Assembly: GCA_048939765.1 (NCBI GenBank)
Contig: JBHLPF010000043.1
Coordinates: 1-23,918 of the forward strand
Length of the DNA: 23,918 bases
Reading direction: 5' to 3'
Source of the DNA: Promethearchaeota archaeon
Lineage (GTDB): Archaea > Asgardarchaeota > Thorarchaeia > Thorarchaeales > Thorarchaeaceae
In this document: positions 18,801 to 21,725 of the stretch, piece after piece
Layout of the letters: the number at the start of each line of letters is the position of its first letter
Numbering within the stretch: the first letter of the stretch is position 1
Made by a program: the position numbers and the translations under genes
The notes under the pieces: generated by a model
Databases searched by the model: none
Told to the model about the DNA's origin: nothing
The model's input: the letters and a program-made list of their open reading frames with translations, nothing else

Positions 18801-21725
18801 CCAATGGATGTGATTCCTGAAGAAGACAGGTATTTCTTTACTGTGGACTATGGAGGACAGGCATCAATAATAGTGTACCTAAGGGATTCCGAATCTGCGA
18901 GCAATGTGACAGACGCTAATGTTACAGCGAGATGGGCCTTTGCCAACTTGACTCTGACAGAGGTACCTGGACGACCAGGACATTACTCGATCAATATGCC
19001 CACCATCGATGCAACATTTGGAACCTATGAGATTCATGTTTCTGCCTTCAAGGAAAACTATGGGAATGCAACTGTCACTATCAGCATGAGTGTTTCCAAG
19101 ATTAATCTGGTAGTGTGGCTAGACAGCGCAACAGCCGCATACGAGTATACTCCAATCTATTGGTCCGAATCAGTCAGAATTGGAGTATACGTCTTAACAC
19201 CTGCTTTGAATTCAACGCATCCTTATTCTACAGGACTATCCAACTGCATTGTCAGATGGTTCTCGCCAGAGCTCGGTGTGAATGGGACTCTTCTGAATGG
19301 TTCACTCGTAGGTGGACCTGGATACTATTACTTTTTCTTCAACACTAGTGATAGCACCGCTTCTGTCCATAATTTCGTCATATCCGCGGAACCGCCTAAT
19401 ACCGACTATACAGATGCTGAGAATTCAACAACTATCCTGGTAGAGAACCTCCCAGCTGTCATACAGTCACCGGGCTCCCCAGAAGTTATATGGGGCTGGA
19501 CTGGATACATAAACTTCACATATTTCAACACATATCATCATGTGGGCATAGATGCAGATTTAGCGACGTATCAGTGGGCGGGAGGCTCTGGGGCACCATA
19601 TGATTTCGGTAATGGAGTCTATGGAGTTCCTTTGAACACCAGTTCTGTTAGGCCAGGGACATATCGAATTACAGTAGGCTTCCAGAGGATCAACTACAAT
19701 GACCAACAGCTGACAATCGCATTAAGCATAGCCCCGGTACCTACAGAAATAGTGGTCAACCTATCCGATGAATATCGGATAGGAAACACATGGGAGCAAC
19801 TTCAGGTGCCTTATGGAGATATCTTGAACGTTGTTCTCCTCTACAACAACACCTGGGATTCATGTGGAATATCAGGGGCAATATTCAATAAATCGGTATA
19901 TTCAGGACCTGGCTTCTTAGAGGAGCCCTTGGGTCTAATAGCAGGAGAGGGCGGGAACTACTCATTCGTGTTTGACACGGCTCTAGGGACACTGTATTCG
20001 GAGTTCGAATTCAGCATTCGTTTCTCTTTGGAGAATTATTCTACAGCGGCCTTTACGTTTGTAGTCACAATCGTTGAAATTCCAACAGCTGCCGAGATTA
20101 TAGGTCCATCAATACTCTCGCTTTCCTACAGCAACGAAACCACCTTCTGGGTCCAATACTCTGACATTTGGCCTGGACACGGCGCCATGGGAGTCAGTGG
20201 TGCTACGGCCACCATTGTAATCACTAGTGAGATTCCTAATCTGGCGATAATTGAGTTTAGTGGAGAGGATGCAGCTAACCCTGGCATGTATCAATTCAGA
20301 GTGGTCACTCGTGCAAGATCTGGTGTCGTCGATGTCACAATACGCTTCAACAAGTCGAATTATATGCCAAACGAAGCTGCATTGACAATTTCAATCAGCC
20401 CGTCTGATGCAGACATCATGATGCGGAATGTAATGACATTCGGAAGCGCATTCACAATCATCATCCTGCTGAGCGCCATTGTGTGGGTGCGAGTTATCAG
20501 AGTACCAAAGATTATTCGTATGCTGAGCGCTCAAATCAGAAGTCTGAGAAGAAGACGCGTCCCGAAGCCAGCAGGAGAAGTATTGAGCAGACAAGAGCTA
20601 ATAGCTCAGTTGTTCAGAGAGCTTACTGAGGACCTCAAAATCGACAAAAGGCCTGAGATGATTCCGCCCGAGTCGGTGACAGTCGATGTCCCTGAGATTG
20701 AGCAGCTTCTCTTGGACTTGGCCATTTTGACAGATATGACTTCAGAGGAAATTGATGACTTCCGACGAGACCTCTCGAAGATGAAGATGAGTCAGCAGAC
20801 CAACTTCATTGCTGAGGTGATCAAGCAAGAGGTGCCTCGGGTCGCCAAGGCCGAAGGTAAGTCTTTGACCGAAGTGCTGGAAGATGTTAGATTGGAGCGG
20901 GAGAGGAGAATTGGCGGCGAAGCAGCACCCTCAGTACTTCCTGGCTTTGACATTGAAGCCGAAGAAGCAGCTCTATTTGCTCCTATTGAGAAGCCTGCTG
21001 TTGATGAAGATCATCTTAGTGAGAAGGAAATGCAGGAGATGAAGACAGGCCTTCTTGAAAGAGGGCTTCCTATGCATGAAGTTGATGCGGTGATCAATCA
21101 GGCAAGAGGCCTCCCCAAGGATGTGGCTGAGATGCTTCTCAAGAGCTTTGGTTCAGCTGTCGATATGCATGAAACTGAGGTAGACACAGCCAAATTGAGC
21201 GATATGGAGATTGAGATGCTTAGACAACAGCTTGCAGATGAAGGTGCCAGCGTAAAGGAAATTGATAAGATTCTGGAGCAAGCAAAGGAAGTTCCAAGAG
21301 CACTAGCGATGGAGTTACTCAAAGGATTCAGACATGAGCAGGAAGTCAAGCGGGAAAAGAGGAGGAAGAAGAAACCCATTGAAACTATGTCTGAGGAGGA
21401 TCTTGTTGCGCTACGAGGCCGGCTCTTCATAAAAGGCACTCCTGAACATGAGATTGATACAATAACTGAACAAGCCAAGACTGTGCCCAAAGACAAAGCT
21501 GCTGAATTCATCAAGATGGTCGAGGAAACAGCTCCCGTTCCAATGGAAGACAAGATTGAATTCGAGGATGTACTGAGCGAGATGGAATTAGAGGACCTGC
21601 GCATGGAACTCAAGAAAAGAGGCGTGCCTGTTGTCGAGATTGAAGCAATTGTCGCTCAGGCAAAGAACCTGCCGAAGGCGCTTGTTCAGGACCTCCTTGA
21701 TAGCATCGATGCTGAGAAAAAGTAG
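9750..21725 (+). CDS. Giant single-pass membrane-anchored surface glycoprotein B (3991 aa): signal peptide, multi-lectin-like head, 23 Ig-like repeats, TM helix, ~411-aa cytoplasmic tail with four helical repeats; paralog of ORF1
   Basis: 11976-nt ORF with a strong SD. The N-terminus has a basic then hydrophobic signal (RMRNKTRNLLFQLVVVGILILVVSP...AEA). It is collinear with ORF1 from ~12480 to the C-terminus, except for the cassette position. TM helix at ~20430-20489. Confidence 0.95.
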   Translation: MMPSSSRIPSLRMRNKTRNLLFQLVVVGILILVVSPVPSFISSSNMAEAYPASQVQWTDNWAQSEGQSYAGSGAPQDITLNGAITNDSQELELIDPSAPTAVTISAPQGWSGTSLSGTMDHISTRFTPIKNGLLDTYHTERTIVSGWPWSSQEYNVPDNWAIIDEGEDPVHPYYGHLYFHSYSANGMQGSMGWRFTANYGTTNSLDTSDRIFLCQQIGMPWRELYSAEVSLRYYVRSQSTMNDYFYLFVGLGDFESRVHVFESGDTTDEWLQYDVEVPASAFDEYPIPGAIELRIGIGTEYSGLPAATIDHQVLIDEVDLVLEARPLPEQIGLSANQTLITSSIAGSVSPYVPDGASRDCFSRSDTGISTSSALRVGVYSSSGSSWDDIIKYQIGIQFPLEIPQGAIITYAALEVEALGYLGGGDNSLRVLVAEEDNVSPFTNGLPNLEDRYTWSNTSVAWIQDTWENYFRYRTPDMSSLVQSVISRSGWDSGNYIGVMIDYMNSDQYRDWNSIRGTYSYGGLDLATFYVEFLVPQEEDTISILEYKKDLTIDHTKVSSDLEDFPVLVDIYDSDLKTDARQDGKDIKFTVGSEILDHEIELFDSDYNSTHAHLVAWVNVPLLSASTDTTVTMSYGAPDASIPENPHRIWDDYESVWHLSEQSGNGSFIEDSSQNYHNGMPVQTTFMQNARIGDARYFQDAVGNYIPFIDGDDIFDGWGDFQFSFWVYFDYSSDAEWTDVEPLIFEKGTSITLVRTFRQSTGWPPDIASFQPDIHFNSGHNSWVNIGVKRQTWNYIVYKYDSTGDGVLRGYSYADGSLLDSSSDSGMGVGDRLRDDLNIFMLGIYGGGQVHLGGIDEFRTMMGYKSVDWIQTEYANQYDPSSFLNVGTQQSVQFGQNATLLFTTDAPSVVSILPRMTLDITDQETTLDSNMMPGTSFSTANGTDVTWTANVLISPPPGATDISLTVEKLSTWTLHSVTDSFDEIRTSEVTGTATQVVVPSSAIDVYGVWSFAFTSPNEASNLECAAGGGSYDMTTVVQPGQSLDFRGTASVIPGSAMKLTLVDPNDQISYSSFDFSQDGSGQFEWTGIAVDSTWPRGTWVAYVDFNDTAGAFPLYVGRYSREFIVKHTSSLELQAPGDAIGDKLSVRTAGDLLLVEVHLTDTDTSENVSGSTVIMNWTISGAPTQVQLEDYGDGSYGKALNTSDLGLPGMWRINIQSNHPYLADSSTFFDLELSHPTYISYETPDTTAYSDDFAVKVTLYDAINSNAYPSATITSNGTLVGVPVDYGNGTYLVQIDSAGLELGTYGFQINAVPSQSFVLGSSIDVVFVYRRISTELAQLGASPISIPWGQTVNATLKWQDMDHGKTGVLGGILTGDATFQYTDLLDGTYSIEIDVSGNAVGLYLFNFSISKSYYTMDQITVAVSVIPHRTTLVVTYNSSVPIGTNTYFSLAYHDMDTGGAEIPGNFSSVQVQWNGGLAPFGSKAFWLQTTQWGLGSHTLNLTLFATSSPRFYYDGHTAVIIEIGKVKTGFNWAPIDSFPVGDDFAIPLFLTVDEYVSIYDGTSIDGLDVSYFDAQDKDGTPYTIKSLSALGNGEYLLTIDQAFFSVGTYTIRIIITFGAAENYTSTQTPIINFAYSQARSELTSPDYPTMTISYSTDASITLEFIDIDRGQGIDTASVTVVGATELSENLISSGRYRVVIDTSSWSIGGDNVTLIVSAPNYQSKNMTIYIQVRQIRTYAIATIGFLDIPVGDSKIFYVDYMDLDHDTTIGLAEGAIGSCNWTSSHYDVAWTGTRWKVTITTYDTDSLDSYFLMFDFSAGAEYEVAYFNMSVVIRTIDTELRLITPAETTTATGQVQISVYYGDRDHALGIVSSDVSCTVRNSTDTLTISWVNGSADGYYDITIDASQFGKLGNQQLNIIFNWTGSIQKYQDKFLLTSAEVVGEDSEIVLIDATPATPCLGYMDYTFLYMDSSGFGITNNTSDVFIRVEFSGLAIDYSQIDILEVDNIASPGYYSIGFNNTILGSTGLFSMRVFINWSQGAWPYYTNRTDVISVRVLPRDTLLSIVPPTSVAFGENATFTFTYEDITGGTSSTIANDAAMAISLSLAEFTLDYDSLGGIFTVSFNTSQFGAPLGERTFTLSVSWSGIPFYANKTGKLISLTVSDRQTVLTYPTPPVTSYNDNVTFTIILTDVAGSVSRGVEGATISLYDGAAEIPQTYVKIIEQGQGQYLIELNTSYYAMPDNYILDIIATPAAFYYLAKSGSRTLTIDSRVTILIAEPPGDTAHNSSLRIVVQYLDLNTLNSIANQSSLYTHIQILNGSGWIFTCTWRPSAENYLLIVETYNQALDIGTQYQLWLNFSTEEQAPFYRSSTLLVPFRLRERDTTLDIIATALPTSYSDHANFTIEYKDILSLSGITGGTIILHHGFNLLSQGVEYQISIIGVGQYRISVDTSFLGAPGTKTITVTADWSAGAPYYNDASRNVTFIVTERQTSIEITVPPSETQFLNNVTFDFIFTDAATRAAIGIVADDVRIFSEGIQLGAQDYSISIAGSGLRINLNSTIISAALVSNWNITVVVVWTGGTPYYQDDQSTVFVTTTSRSGTVELDQVLDTPLGDNVVLGLTFSDQTKGIGITGASIVFSCVEVPGLVEGVDYWITAGVGPDAGRYTVDVSSTALGSLGLYNFILEVRWNPVVSPYYANITNLLMKGVVRAIQVSLSSELPTPSVAAFYQNISFIVTFTDIDHSLGIPGAEGAISLKYDSTGLEPSCWSVHSIAAGAYNISLNLTDSLTTGLQYITVGITLFPYQSVTTQAVVGVRNRVGGLTADVPAANYAGEPIYVTVSLVDDDAGGAPRSGAWLDLTWGDFASFTDLGDGSYNVTLFTTGLGFGIQTLKIDVILTHYTVSTLSVELELLAVTSELIVTWSGPRPNSPLEIYWGEPLTIYAAFNDTLRNQLVTSATIVYSWTGGSDAFGITGTPGNYTAIVDTSPGSAHQTITIRLEGQAPNYLNTSAQLSFQLLPRPMDVIPEEDRYFFTVDYGGQASIIVYLRDSESASNVTDANVTARWAFANLTLTEVPGRPGHYSINMPTIDATFGTYEIHVSAFKENYGNATVTISMSVSKINLVVWLDSATAAYEYTPIYWSESVRIGVYVLTPALNSTHPYSTGLSNCIVRWFSPELGVNGTLLNGSLVGGPGYYYFFFNTSDSTASVHNFVISAEPPNTDYTDAENSTTILVENLPAVIQSPGSPEVIWGWTGYINFTYFNTYHHVGIDADLATYQWAGGSGAPYDFGNGVYGVPLNTSSVRPGTYRITVGFQRINYNDQQLTIALSIAPVPTEIVVNLSDEYRIGNTWEQLQVPYGDILNVVLLYNNTWDSCGISGAIFNKSVYSGPGFLEEPLGLIAGEGGNYSFVFDTALGTLYSEFEFSIRFSLENYSTAAFTFVVTIVEIPTAAEIIGPSILSLSYSNETTFWVQYSDIWPGHGAMGVSGATATIVITSEIPNLAIIEFSGEDAANPGMYQFRVVTRARSGVVDVTIRFNKSNYMPNEAALTISISPSDADIMMRNVMTFGSAFTIIILLSAIVWVRVIRVPKIIRMLSAQIRSLRRRRVPKPAGEVLSRQELIAQLFRELTEDLKIDKRPEMIPPESVTVDVPEIEQLLLDLAILTDMTSEEIDDFRRDLSKMKMSQQTNFIAEVIKQEVPRVAKAEGKSLTEVLEDVRLERERRIGGEAAPSVLPGFDIEAEEAALFAPIEKPAVDEDHLSEKEMQEMKTGLLERGLPMHEVDAVINQARGLPKDVAEMLLKSFGSAVDMHETEVDTAKLSDMEIEMLRQQLADEGASVKEIDKILEQAKEVPRALAMELLKGFRHEQEVKREKRRKKKPIETMSEEDLVALRGRLFIKGTPEHEIDTITEQAKTVPKDKAAEFIKMVEETAPVPMEDKIEFEDVLSEMELEDLRMELKKRGVPVVEIEAIVAQAKNLPKALVQDLLDSIDAEKK
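10131..10721 (+). other. Putative CBM/galactose-binding-like jelly-roll domain in ORF2 head
   Basis: Pattern IKNG.....NW....(EVSLRYYV)....WLQYDVEV....IELRIGI....VLIDEVDL resembles the start (NG) and end (IDxVxL) signatures of CBM4/9-like folds. This is pattern recognition only. Confidence 0.4.
10812..11345 (+). other. Putative DNRLRE/CBM96-like domain in ORF2 head
   Basis: IGIQFPLEIPQGAIITYAALEV...TSVAW...YRTPDMSSLVQSVISRSGWDSGN...LATFYVEF resembles the 'F.l.IP.GA.I..A.L ... D...lVQ......W..GN ... L.v.y' pattern of this surface-protein domain class. Confidence 0.5.
11382..12420 (+). other. DUF2341 + LamG-like cassette in ORF2
   Basis: YKKDLTIDH..V..DL.DFPVLV...DGKDIKF...HEIELFD..NSTHAHLVAWV.VPLLS, then VWHLSE, FSFWVY, WNYIVYKYD, GGIDEFR and WIQTEYANQYDPSSF. 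Confidence 0.82.
13125..20402 (+). repeat. Stalk of 23 tandem divergent Ig-like repeats in ORF2
   Basis: Same repeat pattern as in ORF1. The units match ORF1 one-to-one in order: APGDAI in unit 1, IPW in unit 3, WNP.V.PYY in unit 15, GGPGY.Y..FNT in unit 20, WGW.G..N.TY in unit 21. Confidence 0.75.
20430..20489 (+). other. C-terminal transmembrane helix of ORF2
   Basis: VMTFGSAFTIIILLSAIVWV followed by RVIRVPKIIRMLSAQIRSLRRRRVPK. Confidence 0.88.
21015..21707 (+). repeat. Four 45-aa helical repeats in the ORF2 cytoplasmic tail (21015-21149, 21195-21329, 21387-21521, 21573-21707); one homologous copy in ORF1 (9592-9726)
   Basis: Gapless alignment: LSEKEMQEMKTGLLERGLPMHEVDAVINQARGLPKDVAEMLLKSF / LSDMEIEMLRQQLADEGASVKEIDKILEQAKEVPRALAMELLKGF / MSEEDLVALRGRLFIKGTPEHEIDTITEQAKTVPKDKAAEFIKMV / LSEMELEDLRMELKKRGVPVVEIEAIVAQAKNLPKALVQDLLDSI / (ORF1) VSVEEIRAIRRKLVEAGIGGGELETIMEQVQELPKELVEDLINSI. 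Confidence 0.93.

What the first reader, a model, noticed from the sequence alone, without database searches (positions are those of the whole stretch)
21015..21707. Unrecognised 45-aa cytoplasmic three-helix repeat with 1 vs 4 copies
Seen: five gapless 45-aa copies with consensus hSxx(E/D)hxxh(R/K)xxLxxxGxxxxEh(D/E)xhxxQA(K/R)x(L/V)P(K/R)xxxxxhhxxh. S, L, G, E, Q and P are invariant, and the linkers are 15-19 aa. The stalk is fixed in length while this module varies in number. I cannot assign it to a named family; the LxxxGxxxxEI turn only loosely recalls small helical bundles such as UBA-like, Pex14-N or RecX repeats. Inference: a multivalent docking module whose copy number tunes avidity for an intracellular polymer or adaptor.
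Basis: partly seen in the sequence, partly recalled or inferred. Interest (0 to 1): 0.75.

Follow-up and report, generated by a model that had tools for sequence, protein, structure and literature searches.

The report
Thorarchaeota giant-protein tail three-helix modules
The 45-residue repeat is real: it is a small, confidently folding three-helix domain with no described family, found only at the inner (cytoplasmic) end of giant cell-surface proteins of Thorarchaeota (Asgard archaea), in either one or four copies. It probably serves as docking sites for a still unknown partner inside the cell.

Summary
ORF2 (9750-21725, 3991 aa) carries four gapless 45-aa copies and ORF1 (5'-open, ends 9753) carries one.

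- **Fold:** AlphaFold2 on 67 natural copies gives a compact three-helix bundle (pLDDT 93.6). In the whole tail the copies behave as beads on disordered linkers (pTM 0.26).
- **No known family:** Pfam, NCBIfam, PDB sequence search, Foldseek, VIA-align and the ESM Atlas give no relative, only sub-threshold or generic three-helix hits.
- **Distribution:** A profile search of 1.84 billion proteins finds 121 hits. About 110 have the full module, always 2-10 residues from the C-terminus and after a single TM helix. The module is in 38/38 sampled genomes of one Asgard order (records titled Thorarchaeota) and in 0/112 other Asgard genomes.
- **UBA reading unlikely:** ubiquitin shows the mirror pattern (0/38 versus 107/113).
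- **Copy number is not tuned:** it is 1 or 4, never between. The four positions are old separate clades, each with its own conserved surface, so simple avidity tuning is not supported.
- **Function:** docking is inferred and the partner is unknown.

This scan had already reported the same module on other genomes and on another contig of this genome. My independent tests agree with those reports.

The parts
1..9753 (+). ORF1: 5'-open giant type-I surface protein (3250 aa in the window) with a DUF2341 + Laminin_G_3 cassette, Ig-like repeats, one TM helix, and a cytoplasmic tail carrying ONE module
   Evidence: 61 sequons in the ectodomain and 0 in the tail
9592..9726 (+). ORF1 module (single copy); it ends 8 residues before the stop
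9750..9753 (+). ATGA overlap of the ORF1 stop and the ORF2 start, with GGAGGTGA at 9735-9742. This suggests translational coupling of the two giants.
   Evidence: sequence read directly
9750..21725 (+). ORF2: 3991-aa giant type-I surface protein. It has an N-terminal signal/TM, an ectodomain with 73 sequons and a weak DUF2341 match, one TM helix, and a 406-aa cytoplasmic tail.
20430..20498 (+). ORF2 transmembrane helix (about aa 3561-3583)
   Evidence: hydropathy scan; long helix in the AF2 model
20499..20585 (+). Basic juxtamembrane stretch (net +8), conserved as VPKxxRxhxxQhxxLxxGxxPxP
20586..20924 (+). Conserved helical tail core shared by all family members (invariant M, S, F, EVI, Q positions)
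20925..21014 (+). Acidic linker before the first module (pLDDT below 50). Its length varies across the family.
21015..21149 (+). Module copy 1
21195..21329 (+). Module copy 2
21330..21386 (+). Polybasic linker between copies 2 and 3 (net +5). It is basic in all ten 4-copy tails aligned.
21387..21521 (+). Module copy 3 (exposed hydrophobic residues on helix 1)
21573..21707 (+). Module copy 4, the counterpart of the single-copy module; it ends 5 residues before the stop

Best explanation
The repeat is an independently folding, acidic, 45-residue three-helix-bundle domain of a lineage-specific family with no described relative. It forms the extreme C-terminus of the cytoplasmic tail of giant, glycosylated, single-pass surface proteins of Thorarchaeota. 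The tail reads: TM helix, basic juxtamembrane stretch, conserved helical core, acidic flexible linker, then one module or a fixed array of four. The universally conserved residues are structural: an S-x-x-E helix cap, G17 and P19 in loop 1, P34 at the start of helix 3, and a regular buried hydrophobic pattern. The exposed residues are conserved within each of the four positions but differ between positions. The most likely role, which is inferred and not shown, is protein docking. Each module would offer a groove or face for a cytoplasmic partner, or for a helix of a partner. The four-copy protein would then present four different sites on a flexible string below the membrane, and its translationally coupled upstream neighbour would present one. 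This would tie the giant surface proteins to something inside the cell.
For: Fold: AF2 on 67 copies gives pLDDT 93.6 and pTM 0.70, with helices at 3-15, 20-30 and 35-44. Hydrophobic residues occupy positions 1, 6, 9, 13, 18, 23, 26, 27, 30, 33, 37, 38, 41, 42 and 45. Beads on a string: the whole-tail model has pTM 0.26, modules at pLDDT about 80, and linkers below 50. Family: 121 hits in 1.84 billion proteins, about 110 with the full module 2-10 aa from the C-terminus and 200-430 aa after one TM helix. In the own genome it occurs only in 9 giant ORFs. It is in 37/37 genomes of the window's own family and the one genome sampled from a second family of the same order, against 0/112 other Asgard genomes. 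Record titles name Thorarchaeota. Cytoplasmic side: sequon and charge asymmetry. Distinct sites. Only 1 or 4 copies. The nearest structural analogues are all peptide- or protein-binding three-helix bundles, namely paramyxovirus P XD, protein A, streptococcal beta-protein domain, RuvA domain III, MLLE and KIX, at Z 4-5.5.
Against: No partner is identified. No conserved co-directional small gene follows the tails. The structural matches are generic and tied (best Z 5.5; for helical bundles Z below about 13 may mean only a common arrangement), so they carry no functional weight. The fold is predicted, not solved. Docking is argued from architecture and analogy only. The modules could equally bind each other or the tail core.
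Confidence: 0.55

Rival explanations
1. Self-association modules. The modules bind each other, or the conserved tail core, within or between the paired giants. That would zip the 1-copy and 4-copy proteins, or neighbouring pairs, into clusters or a lattice under the membrane, rather than recruit a separate partner.
For: The two giants are translationally coupled (ATGA overlap). The 4-copy giant directly follows a 1-copy giant on every contig that is long enough to show it. Module and core always co-occur. Copy 3 shows exposed hydrophobic residues V7, A8, F14 and I15. No separate partner gene is conserved nearby.
Against: The single-chain AF2 model of the whole tail shows no confident packing of modules on each other or on the core (pTM 0.26). 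All modules are acidic (pI mostly 4.2-5.2), which does not favour homotypic contacts. Intermolecular prediction could not be run.
Confidence: 0.2
2. Cytoskeleton anchor. The C-terminal module works like a headpiece-type end domain that ties the surface giants to the Asgard actin, or to ESCRT-III filaments.
For: The genome encodes a eukaryote-like actin (440 bits) and two Snf7 proteins. The module is always terminal on a flexible leash, like the villin headpiece (the comparison is from general knowledge).
Against: No VHP or other actin-binding family appears in Pfam scans of the tails. No headpiece appears among the top structural matches (inconclusive). Helix 3 is acidic, whereas headpiece actin binding uses a basic crown (general knowledge). 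Actin and ESCRT-III are present throughout the Asgard phylum, yet the module is confined to one order.
Confidence: 0.1
3. UBA-like ubiquitin-binding domains.
For: The module is a three-helix bundle of UBA size with a G-hydrophobic loop after helix 1. Three of 67 copies give weak UBA_HYPK hits (best E 8.5e-4).
Against: The hits are below Pfam cut-offs. No UBA appears among the structural matches. Ubiquitin PF00240 is found in 0/38 sampled genomes of the module-bearing order but in 107/113 other Asgard genomes, which serve as the positive control.
Confidence: 0.03
4. Nucleic-acid- or RecA-binding repeats related to RecX or SAP/HeH.
For: Sub-threshold Pfam hits recur: RecX_HTH1 in 26/67 copies (best E 1.9e-4), RecX_HTH2 in 16/67 and SAP in 9/67. 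RecX is also built of tandem three-helix units (general knowledge).
Against: All hits are below the gathering cut-offs and cover only helix 1-loop-helix 2. The same partial motif also hits unrelated repeat proteins and de novo designed helical proteins. No RecX chain appears in the PDB sequence search. The modules are acidic and membrane-tethered, and they are separated by disordered linkers instead of packed into a rod.
Confidence: 0.05
5. No specific ligand. The modules are stable, acidic spacer or 'bristle' domains that set tail bulk, solubility or spacing.
For: No partner was found. The universally conserved residues are all explicable as structural.
Against: Exposed residues are conserved within each of the four positions over the whole family (60-72% identity by position). 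The C-terminal placement and the fixed 1-or-4 count are strict. A mere spacer would not be expected to keep this.
Confidence: 0.07

Closest known systems
Small three-helix-bundle docking modules (staphylococcal protein A B domain, streptococcal GA/beta-protein domains, paramyxovirus phosphoprotein XD, RuvA domain III, MLLE, KIX)
   Same: Same size and up-down-up three-helix topology. These are the best structural matches (Z 4.0-5.5, rmsd 1.9-2.8 over 41-45 residues). Several occur as tandem units on flexible linkers and bind a partner protein or helix.
   Different: There is no sequence relationship (4-21% identity), and all matches are tied with unrelated rows, so only a common fold is shared. 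The known modules are extracellular, viral or soluble. This one is at the cytoplasmic C-terminus of archaeal type-I membrane giants.
RecX three-helix repeats (Pfam PF21982, PF02631)
   Same: Tandem three-helix units of roughly 40-50 residues (unit length from general knowledge). There are recurrent weak hits, in 26/67 and 16/67 copies.
   Different: The hits are below cut-off and cover only two helices. The units here are acidic and separated by disordered linkers, membrane-tethered, and in an archaeal lineage.
UBA-like domains
   Same: Three-helix bundle of about 45 residues with a glycine-containing loop after helix 1.
   Different: No significant sequence or structural match. No ubiquitin gene was found in the lineage.
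Cytoplasmic tails of eukaryotic adhesion receptors (integrin beta, classical cadherins) and the villin-type C-terminal headpiece
   Same: The logic is shared: a large glycosylated ectodomain, one TM helix, and a tail that recruits intracellular partners. A small helical end domain sits on a flexible leash. This comparison is from general knowledge.
   Different: No homology. Eukaryotic tails mostly use short linear motifs rather than folded repeats. The headpiece motif and its basic surface are absent.
Giant Ig-repeat surface proteins and adhesins of prokaryotes (for example SiiE, LapA, archaeal colossal S-layer proteins)
   Same: The ectodomain is built alike: thousands of residues of beta-sandwich repeats plus a lectin-like DUF2341/Laminin_G_3 cassette.
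   Different: Those proteins are not known, from general knowledge, to carry a conserved folded cytoplasmic tail with terminal helical modules.

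Membership tests
New family: Thorarchaeota giant-protein tail module | 45-aa unit matching the profile LSxxELExLRxxLxxRGxPxxEIDxIxEQAxxLPRxLVxELLKSx at high significance | tested here: met
   All five window copies score 51-68 bits (domain E 1e-13 to 5e-19) against the 67-copy profile.
New family: Thorarchaeota giant-protein tail module | The last copy ends within about 12 residues of the C-terminus, after a single TM helix and the conserved tail core | tested here: met
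   ORF2 ends 5 aa and ORF1 8 aa after the module. The same holds in about 110 database proteins and 80 loci.
UBA-like (Pfam UBA clan) | Sequence match above the Pfam gathering score | tested here: not met
   Only UBA_HYPK in 3/67 copies, best E 8.5e-4. No UBA family appears in the tails P0001 and P0002.
UBA-like (Pfam UBA clan) | Compact three-helix bundle of about 45 residues | tested here: met
   AF2 pLDDT 93.6 with three helices. This fold is generic.
UBA-like (Pfam UBA clan) | Structural match to solved UBA domains | tested here: inconclusive
   None is listed in Foldseek PDB or in the VIA-align top 50. A family that is not listed is not excluded.
UBA-like (Pfam UBA clan) | A ubiquitin or Ubl ligand is encoded by the organism | tested here: not met
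   PF00240 is found in 0/38 sampled genomes of the order, including the own genome (88.5% complete), but in 107/113 other Asgard genomes.
RecX three-helix repeat (PF21982, PF02631) | Sequence match above the gathering score (26 bits) | tested here: not met
   Best E 1.9e-4 (HTH1, 26/67 copies) and 0.015 (HTH2, 16/67 copies). In P0001 the score is 11.8 bits, and the match covers profile positions 17-38 only.
RecX three-helix repeat (PF21982, PF02631) | Repeats packed into one rigid elongated domain | tested here: not met
   The whole-tail AF2 model has pTM 0.26, and the linkers have pLDDT below 50. This is a prediction only.
SAP / HeH (PF02037) | Sequence match above the gathering score, and a two-helix basic DNA-binding motif | tested here: not met
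   9/67 weak hits, best E 1.6e-3. The module has three helices and is acidic.
Pex14 N-terminal domain (PF04695) | Sequence match above the gathering score | tested here: not met
   1/67 copies, E 0.018.
Villin headpiece (VHP) | Pfam match in the tail | tested here: not met
   Absent from the complete list of families at E up to 10 for the ORF2 and ORF1 tails.
Villin headpiece (VHP) | Structural match to solved headpiece domains | tested here: inconclusive
   Not among the listed matches. Absence from a list is not exclusion.
Villin headpiece (VHP) | F-actin binding | not testable with these tools
   This needs co-sedimentation or complex prediction. An actin gene is present.

The most novel reading that the evidence does not exclude
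The tails are the inner half of an integrin- or cadherin-like transmembrane linkage in an Asgard archaeon. Each of the four diverged modules would recruit a different cytoplasmic component, such as actin, ESCRT-III, small GTPases or the partner giant's tail. The giant adhesin-like ectodomains would then be mechanically or signal-coupled to the cytoskeleton, an independent archaeal invention of outside-in cell-surface coupling.
Probability: 0.12. Interest if true: 0.85.

Novelty: new variant of a known kind. Interest (0 to 1): 0.5.

Why it matters
Asgard archaea are the closest known relatives of eukaryotes, and how their elaborate surfaces connect to their actin- and ESCRT-containing interior is unknown. 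Here a whole family of giant glycosylated surface proteins (9 in this genome) ends inside the cell in a conserved tail. The tip of that tail is a folded, strictly C-terminal module with position-specific conserved surfaces. That gives a small, easily expressed bait of 45 to 230 residues for finding what these giants are wired to. The module is also a clean, undescribed domain family that could be added to domain databases. It would mark these proteins, which are now annotated only as 'hypothetical protein'.

Tried and rejected
- **Family scans of both tails:** Pfam and NCBIfam found nothing above cut-off.
- **Pfam scan of all 67 copies:** only sub-threshold RecX, Bap31_C, cwf21, SAP and UBA_HYPK hits.
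- **PDB sequence search with the 5- and 67-copy profiles:** only de novo designed helical proteins and the polycystin-2 EF-hand region, matched over helix 1-loop-helix 2.
- **Fold searches:** Foldseek against the PDB with the module and with the whole tail, Foldseek against BFVD, VIA-align wide and VIA-align second look all gave no match standing above generic three-helix bundles.
- **ESM Atlas with the four-copy region:** no usable hit.
- **About ten multi-stretch hits:** these match only part of the module (mostly helix 1-loop-helix 2) in unrelated repeat proteins, one of which I read as FliK-like by eye. I rejected them as homologues.
- **Partner by gene neighbourhood:** downstream genes are convergent (a gene I read by eye as a KaiC/RecA-like ATPase, and one I read as a DNA methylase) or another giant. 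No conserved co-directional small gene was found.
- **Cryptic extra copy in the tail core:** hhalign P 0.002 over 21 columns against controls of 0.011-0.39, which is not convincing.
- **Literature:** three full-text searches found no paper describing these tails.

Full report
**What is in the window.**
- The + strand carries two tandem giant genes. ORF1 is 5'-open and ends at 9753 (3250 aa visible). ORF2 runs 9750-21725 (3991 aa).
- They overlap by ATGA, with GGAGGTGA eight bases upstream. That pattern suggests translational coupling.
- Both genes encode type-I membrane proteins. ORF2 has an N-terminal hydrophobic signal. Each protein has a long ectodomain with about 2 N-glycosylation sequons per 100 residues (61 and 73 sequons).
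- ORF1 has a DUF2341 plus Laminin_G_3 lectin-like cassette, and ORF2 has a weak DUF2341 match.
- Each has one TM helix followed by a tail with no sequon. The stretch directly after the ORF2 TM has net charge +8. The tail is therefore cytoplasmic by the positive-inside rule and the sequon asymmetry. This topology is inferred.
- Downstream lie a class I/II aminotransferase gene (21846-23042), a DUF3303 gene on the minus strand, and a small ORF with no Pfam match.

**Check of the observation.**
- They align without gaps. S2, L13, G17, E22, Q29 and P34 are invariant among the five. The linkers are 15, 19 and 17 residues.
- The two tails are homologous throughout (35% identity, E 7e-38). The single ORF1 module also hits other ORF2 copies separately (E 2e-6 and 2e-4).
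- The 5-copy profile finds ten more copies at E 5e-19 to 1e-6 in seven other giant ORFs of the same genome.
Only the 'fixed stalk' claim is local: among 33 aligned tails the acidic linker before the first module varies from almost nothing to about 60 residues.

**Fold.**
- I collected 67 distinct natural copies from this genome and its relatives.
- AlphaFold2 gives a compact three-helix bundle with pLDDT 93.6 and pTM 0.70. The helices span 3-15, 20-30 and 35-44.
- The column statistics fit a real small domain:
  - Hydrophobic residues at 1, 6, 9, 13, 18, 23, 26, 27, 30, 33, 37, 38, 41, 42 and 45.
  - An S-x-x-E cap before helix 1.
  - G17 and P19 in loop 1, and P34 at the start of helix 3.
  - E22 invariant and Q29 at 95%.
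- The universally conserved residues are therefore mostly structural.
- A model of the whole 441-residue ORF2 tail, built with 33 aligned tails, has mean pLDDT 75.8 but pTM only 0.26. The modules are near pLDDT 80 and the linkers below 50. The units are predicted as beads on a string, with no confident packing on each other or on the tail core.

**Is it a known family?**
- Pfam and NCBIfam find nothing above cut-off in either tail.
- Scanning all 67 copies singly gives only sub-threshold hits: RecX_HTH1 in 26 copies (best E 1.9e-4), Bap31_C in 26, RecX_HTH2 in 16, cwf21 in 14, SAP in 9, UBA_HYPK in 3 and Pex14_N in 1.
- In the ORF2 tail the RecX_HTH1 match covers only the end of helix 1, the loop and helix 2. 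The same piece (L-x3-G-h-x3-E-I-x2-I) also matches de novo designed helical proteins in the PDB. It also matches unrelated repeat proteins in the big search. I read it as a common idealised helix-loop-helix, not as homology.
- Foldseek against the PDB and BFVD gives nothing at E below 1.
- VIA-align against 48,161 chains gives a flat list topping at Z 5.5, well inside the range the tool calls a common arrangement for helical bundles.
- The listed analogues are mostly protein- or peptide-binding three-helix bundles: paramyxovirus P XD, protein A, a streptococcal beta-protein domain, RuvA domain III, MLLE and KIX. That is a hint about how such folds are used and nothing more.
- The ESM Atlas gave no usable hit.

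**Who carries it.**
- The 67-copy profile, scored against every one of 1.84 billion representative proteins, finds only 121 at E up to 1e-3.
- About 110 contain the full module. Its end always lies 2-10 residues from the C-terminus. Wherever the sequence reaches far enough, it lies 200-430 residues after a single TM helix. The short ones look like fragments.
- Two singleton exceptions sit on contigs of 1.1 and 2.0 kb and are probably chimeric.
- In the own genome (88.5% complete), with HMMER filters off, the module occurs only in nine giant ORFs and in no cytosolic protein.
- Across 151 Asgard genomes at least 85% complete, it is in 37/37 genomes of the window's own family and in the one genome sampled from a second family of the same order. 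It is in 0/112 genomes of 21 other families.
- Public record titles of 80 related loci name Candidatus Thorarchaeota almost throughout.

**Copy number.**
- In those 80 loci the count is 1 (52 loci) or 4 (28 loci), never 2, 3 or 5.
- Same-position copies of different four-copy proteins are 60-72% identical. Different positions are 33-44% identical, and 38% within one protein.
- In a tree of 63 copies each position is its own clade (support 0.87-0.96). Copy 4 groups with the single-copy modules (0.88).
- The array therefore arose once, long ago, by adding three units upstream of the ancestral terminal one. It has been kept unchanged since.
- Exposed positions (7, 8, 11, 12, 14, 15, 20, 21, 25, 28, 36, 39, 40, 43, 44) differ between positions but are conserved within a position. 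Copy 3 shows exposed hydrophobic residues on helix 1. This argues for four different surfaces, not for a dial of equal sites.
- On every contig long enough to show it, the four-copy giant lies directly after a one-copy giant, as in this window.

**Function.**
- What is shown: a folded, acidic (pI mostly 4.2-5.2), strictly C-terminal module on a flexible leash, on the cytoplasmic side, under strong position-specific constraint.
- What is inferred: it docks a protein partner.
- The UBA idea is unlikely. Ubiquitin (PF00240) is found in 0/38 genomes of the module-bearing order but in 107/113 other Asgard genomes, which serve as the positive control.
- DNA or anionic-lipid binding is unlikely for acidic modules. 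The one polybasic linker, between copies 2 and 3, is conserved and could touch the membrane. That is speculation.
- Candidate polymers exist in the genome: one eukaryote-like actin and two Snf7 proteins. Both are present in Asgard lineages that lack the module, and nothing links them to it.
- Gene neighbourhoods give no partner.
- Self-association of the coupled tails remains a serious rival that I could not test, because only single chains can be folded here.

**Relation to earlier notes of this scan.**
- The same module had been reported on other genomes and on another contig of this genome. Those reports concluded that it is a new three-helix docking unit with an unknown partner and is not a UBA domain.
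- My fold, family, distribution and ubiquitin tests were run independently and agree.
- New here, as far as the earlier summaries I could see show:
  - the strict 1-or-4 rule over 80 loci;
  - the clade-per-position tree, with copy 4 as the ancestral unit;
  - the position-specific exposed residues;
  - the exhaustive 1.84-billion-protein census;
  - the failure to find any cytosolic carrier of this module.

**Verdict.** This is a real, conserved, undescribed domain family in an interesting place, with an inferred but untested docking role.

Noticed in passing
window 9735-9753: The ORF1 stop and the ORF2 start overlap as ATGA, preceded by GGAGGTGA. The one-copy and four-copy giants look translationally coupled. 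The same order (one-copy gene, then four-copy gene) recurs on long contigs of relatives (G005:C8 twice, G015:C19, G035:C13).
   Followed up: partly
window 21330-21386: The linker between module copies 2 and 3 is polybasic (net +5, KREKRRKKK). It is basic in all ten four-copy tails aligned, while the other linkers are acidic. AF2 models it as an extension of helix 3 of copy 2. It may be a membrane- or partner-contact site.
   Followed up: partly
window 20736-20795: A helix of the conserved tail core (MTSEEIDDFRRDLSKMKMSQ) weakly resembles helix 1 of the module, at the same place in 6 of 9 tails of this genome. hhalign gives P 0.002 over 21 columns against 0.011-0.39 for shuffled or reversed controls. 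It could be a degenerate ancient copy or just a shared capping motif.
   Followed up: partly
phylum-wide: The distributions are exact mirror images in the same 151-genome sample. The module is in 38/38 genomes of the Thorarchaeota order and in 0/112 elsewhere. Ubiquitin PF00240 is in 0/38 and in 107/113. This is one lineage event, so it is not evidence of a functional link, but it is striking.
   Followed up: partly
P0018 and P0064 (database proteins): Two singleton proteins on contigs of 1.1 and 2.0 kb join the module to unrelated N-termini. One looks by eye like the first half of a UppS-type prenyltransferase followed by two modules. The other looks like an OPT-transporter-type TM start followed by one module. 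They are probably chimeric assemblies.
   Followed up: partly
own genome contigs C57, C106, C30, C58, C28: Seven more module-bearing giant ORFs lie outside the window, which makes nine in the genome. Two more tandem pairs have one module each (C57: 2658+ aa and 3178 aa; C106: 2592 aa and 2571 aa, with a shorter tail). A second four-copy giant is on C30.
   Followed up: partly
window 650-1515 and about 11490-11700: Both giants carry a DUF2341 domain. In ORF1 it is followed by a Laminin_G_3 (concanavalin-like lectin) domain, E 4e-19, a likely ligand-binding head within the ectodomain.
   Followed up: no
window 23109-23384 (minus strand): A small DUF3303-family gene (E 3e-12) lies convergent to the aminotransferase gene at 21846-23042. 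It is unrelated to the finding.
   Followed up: no
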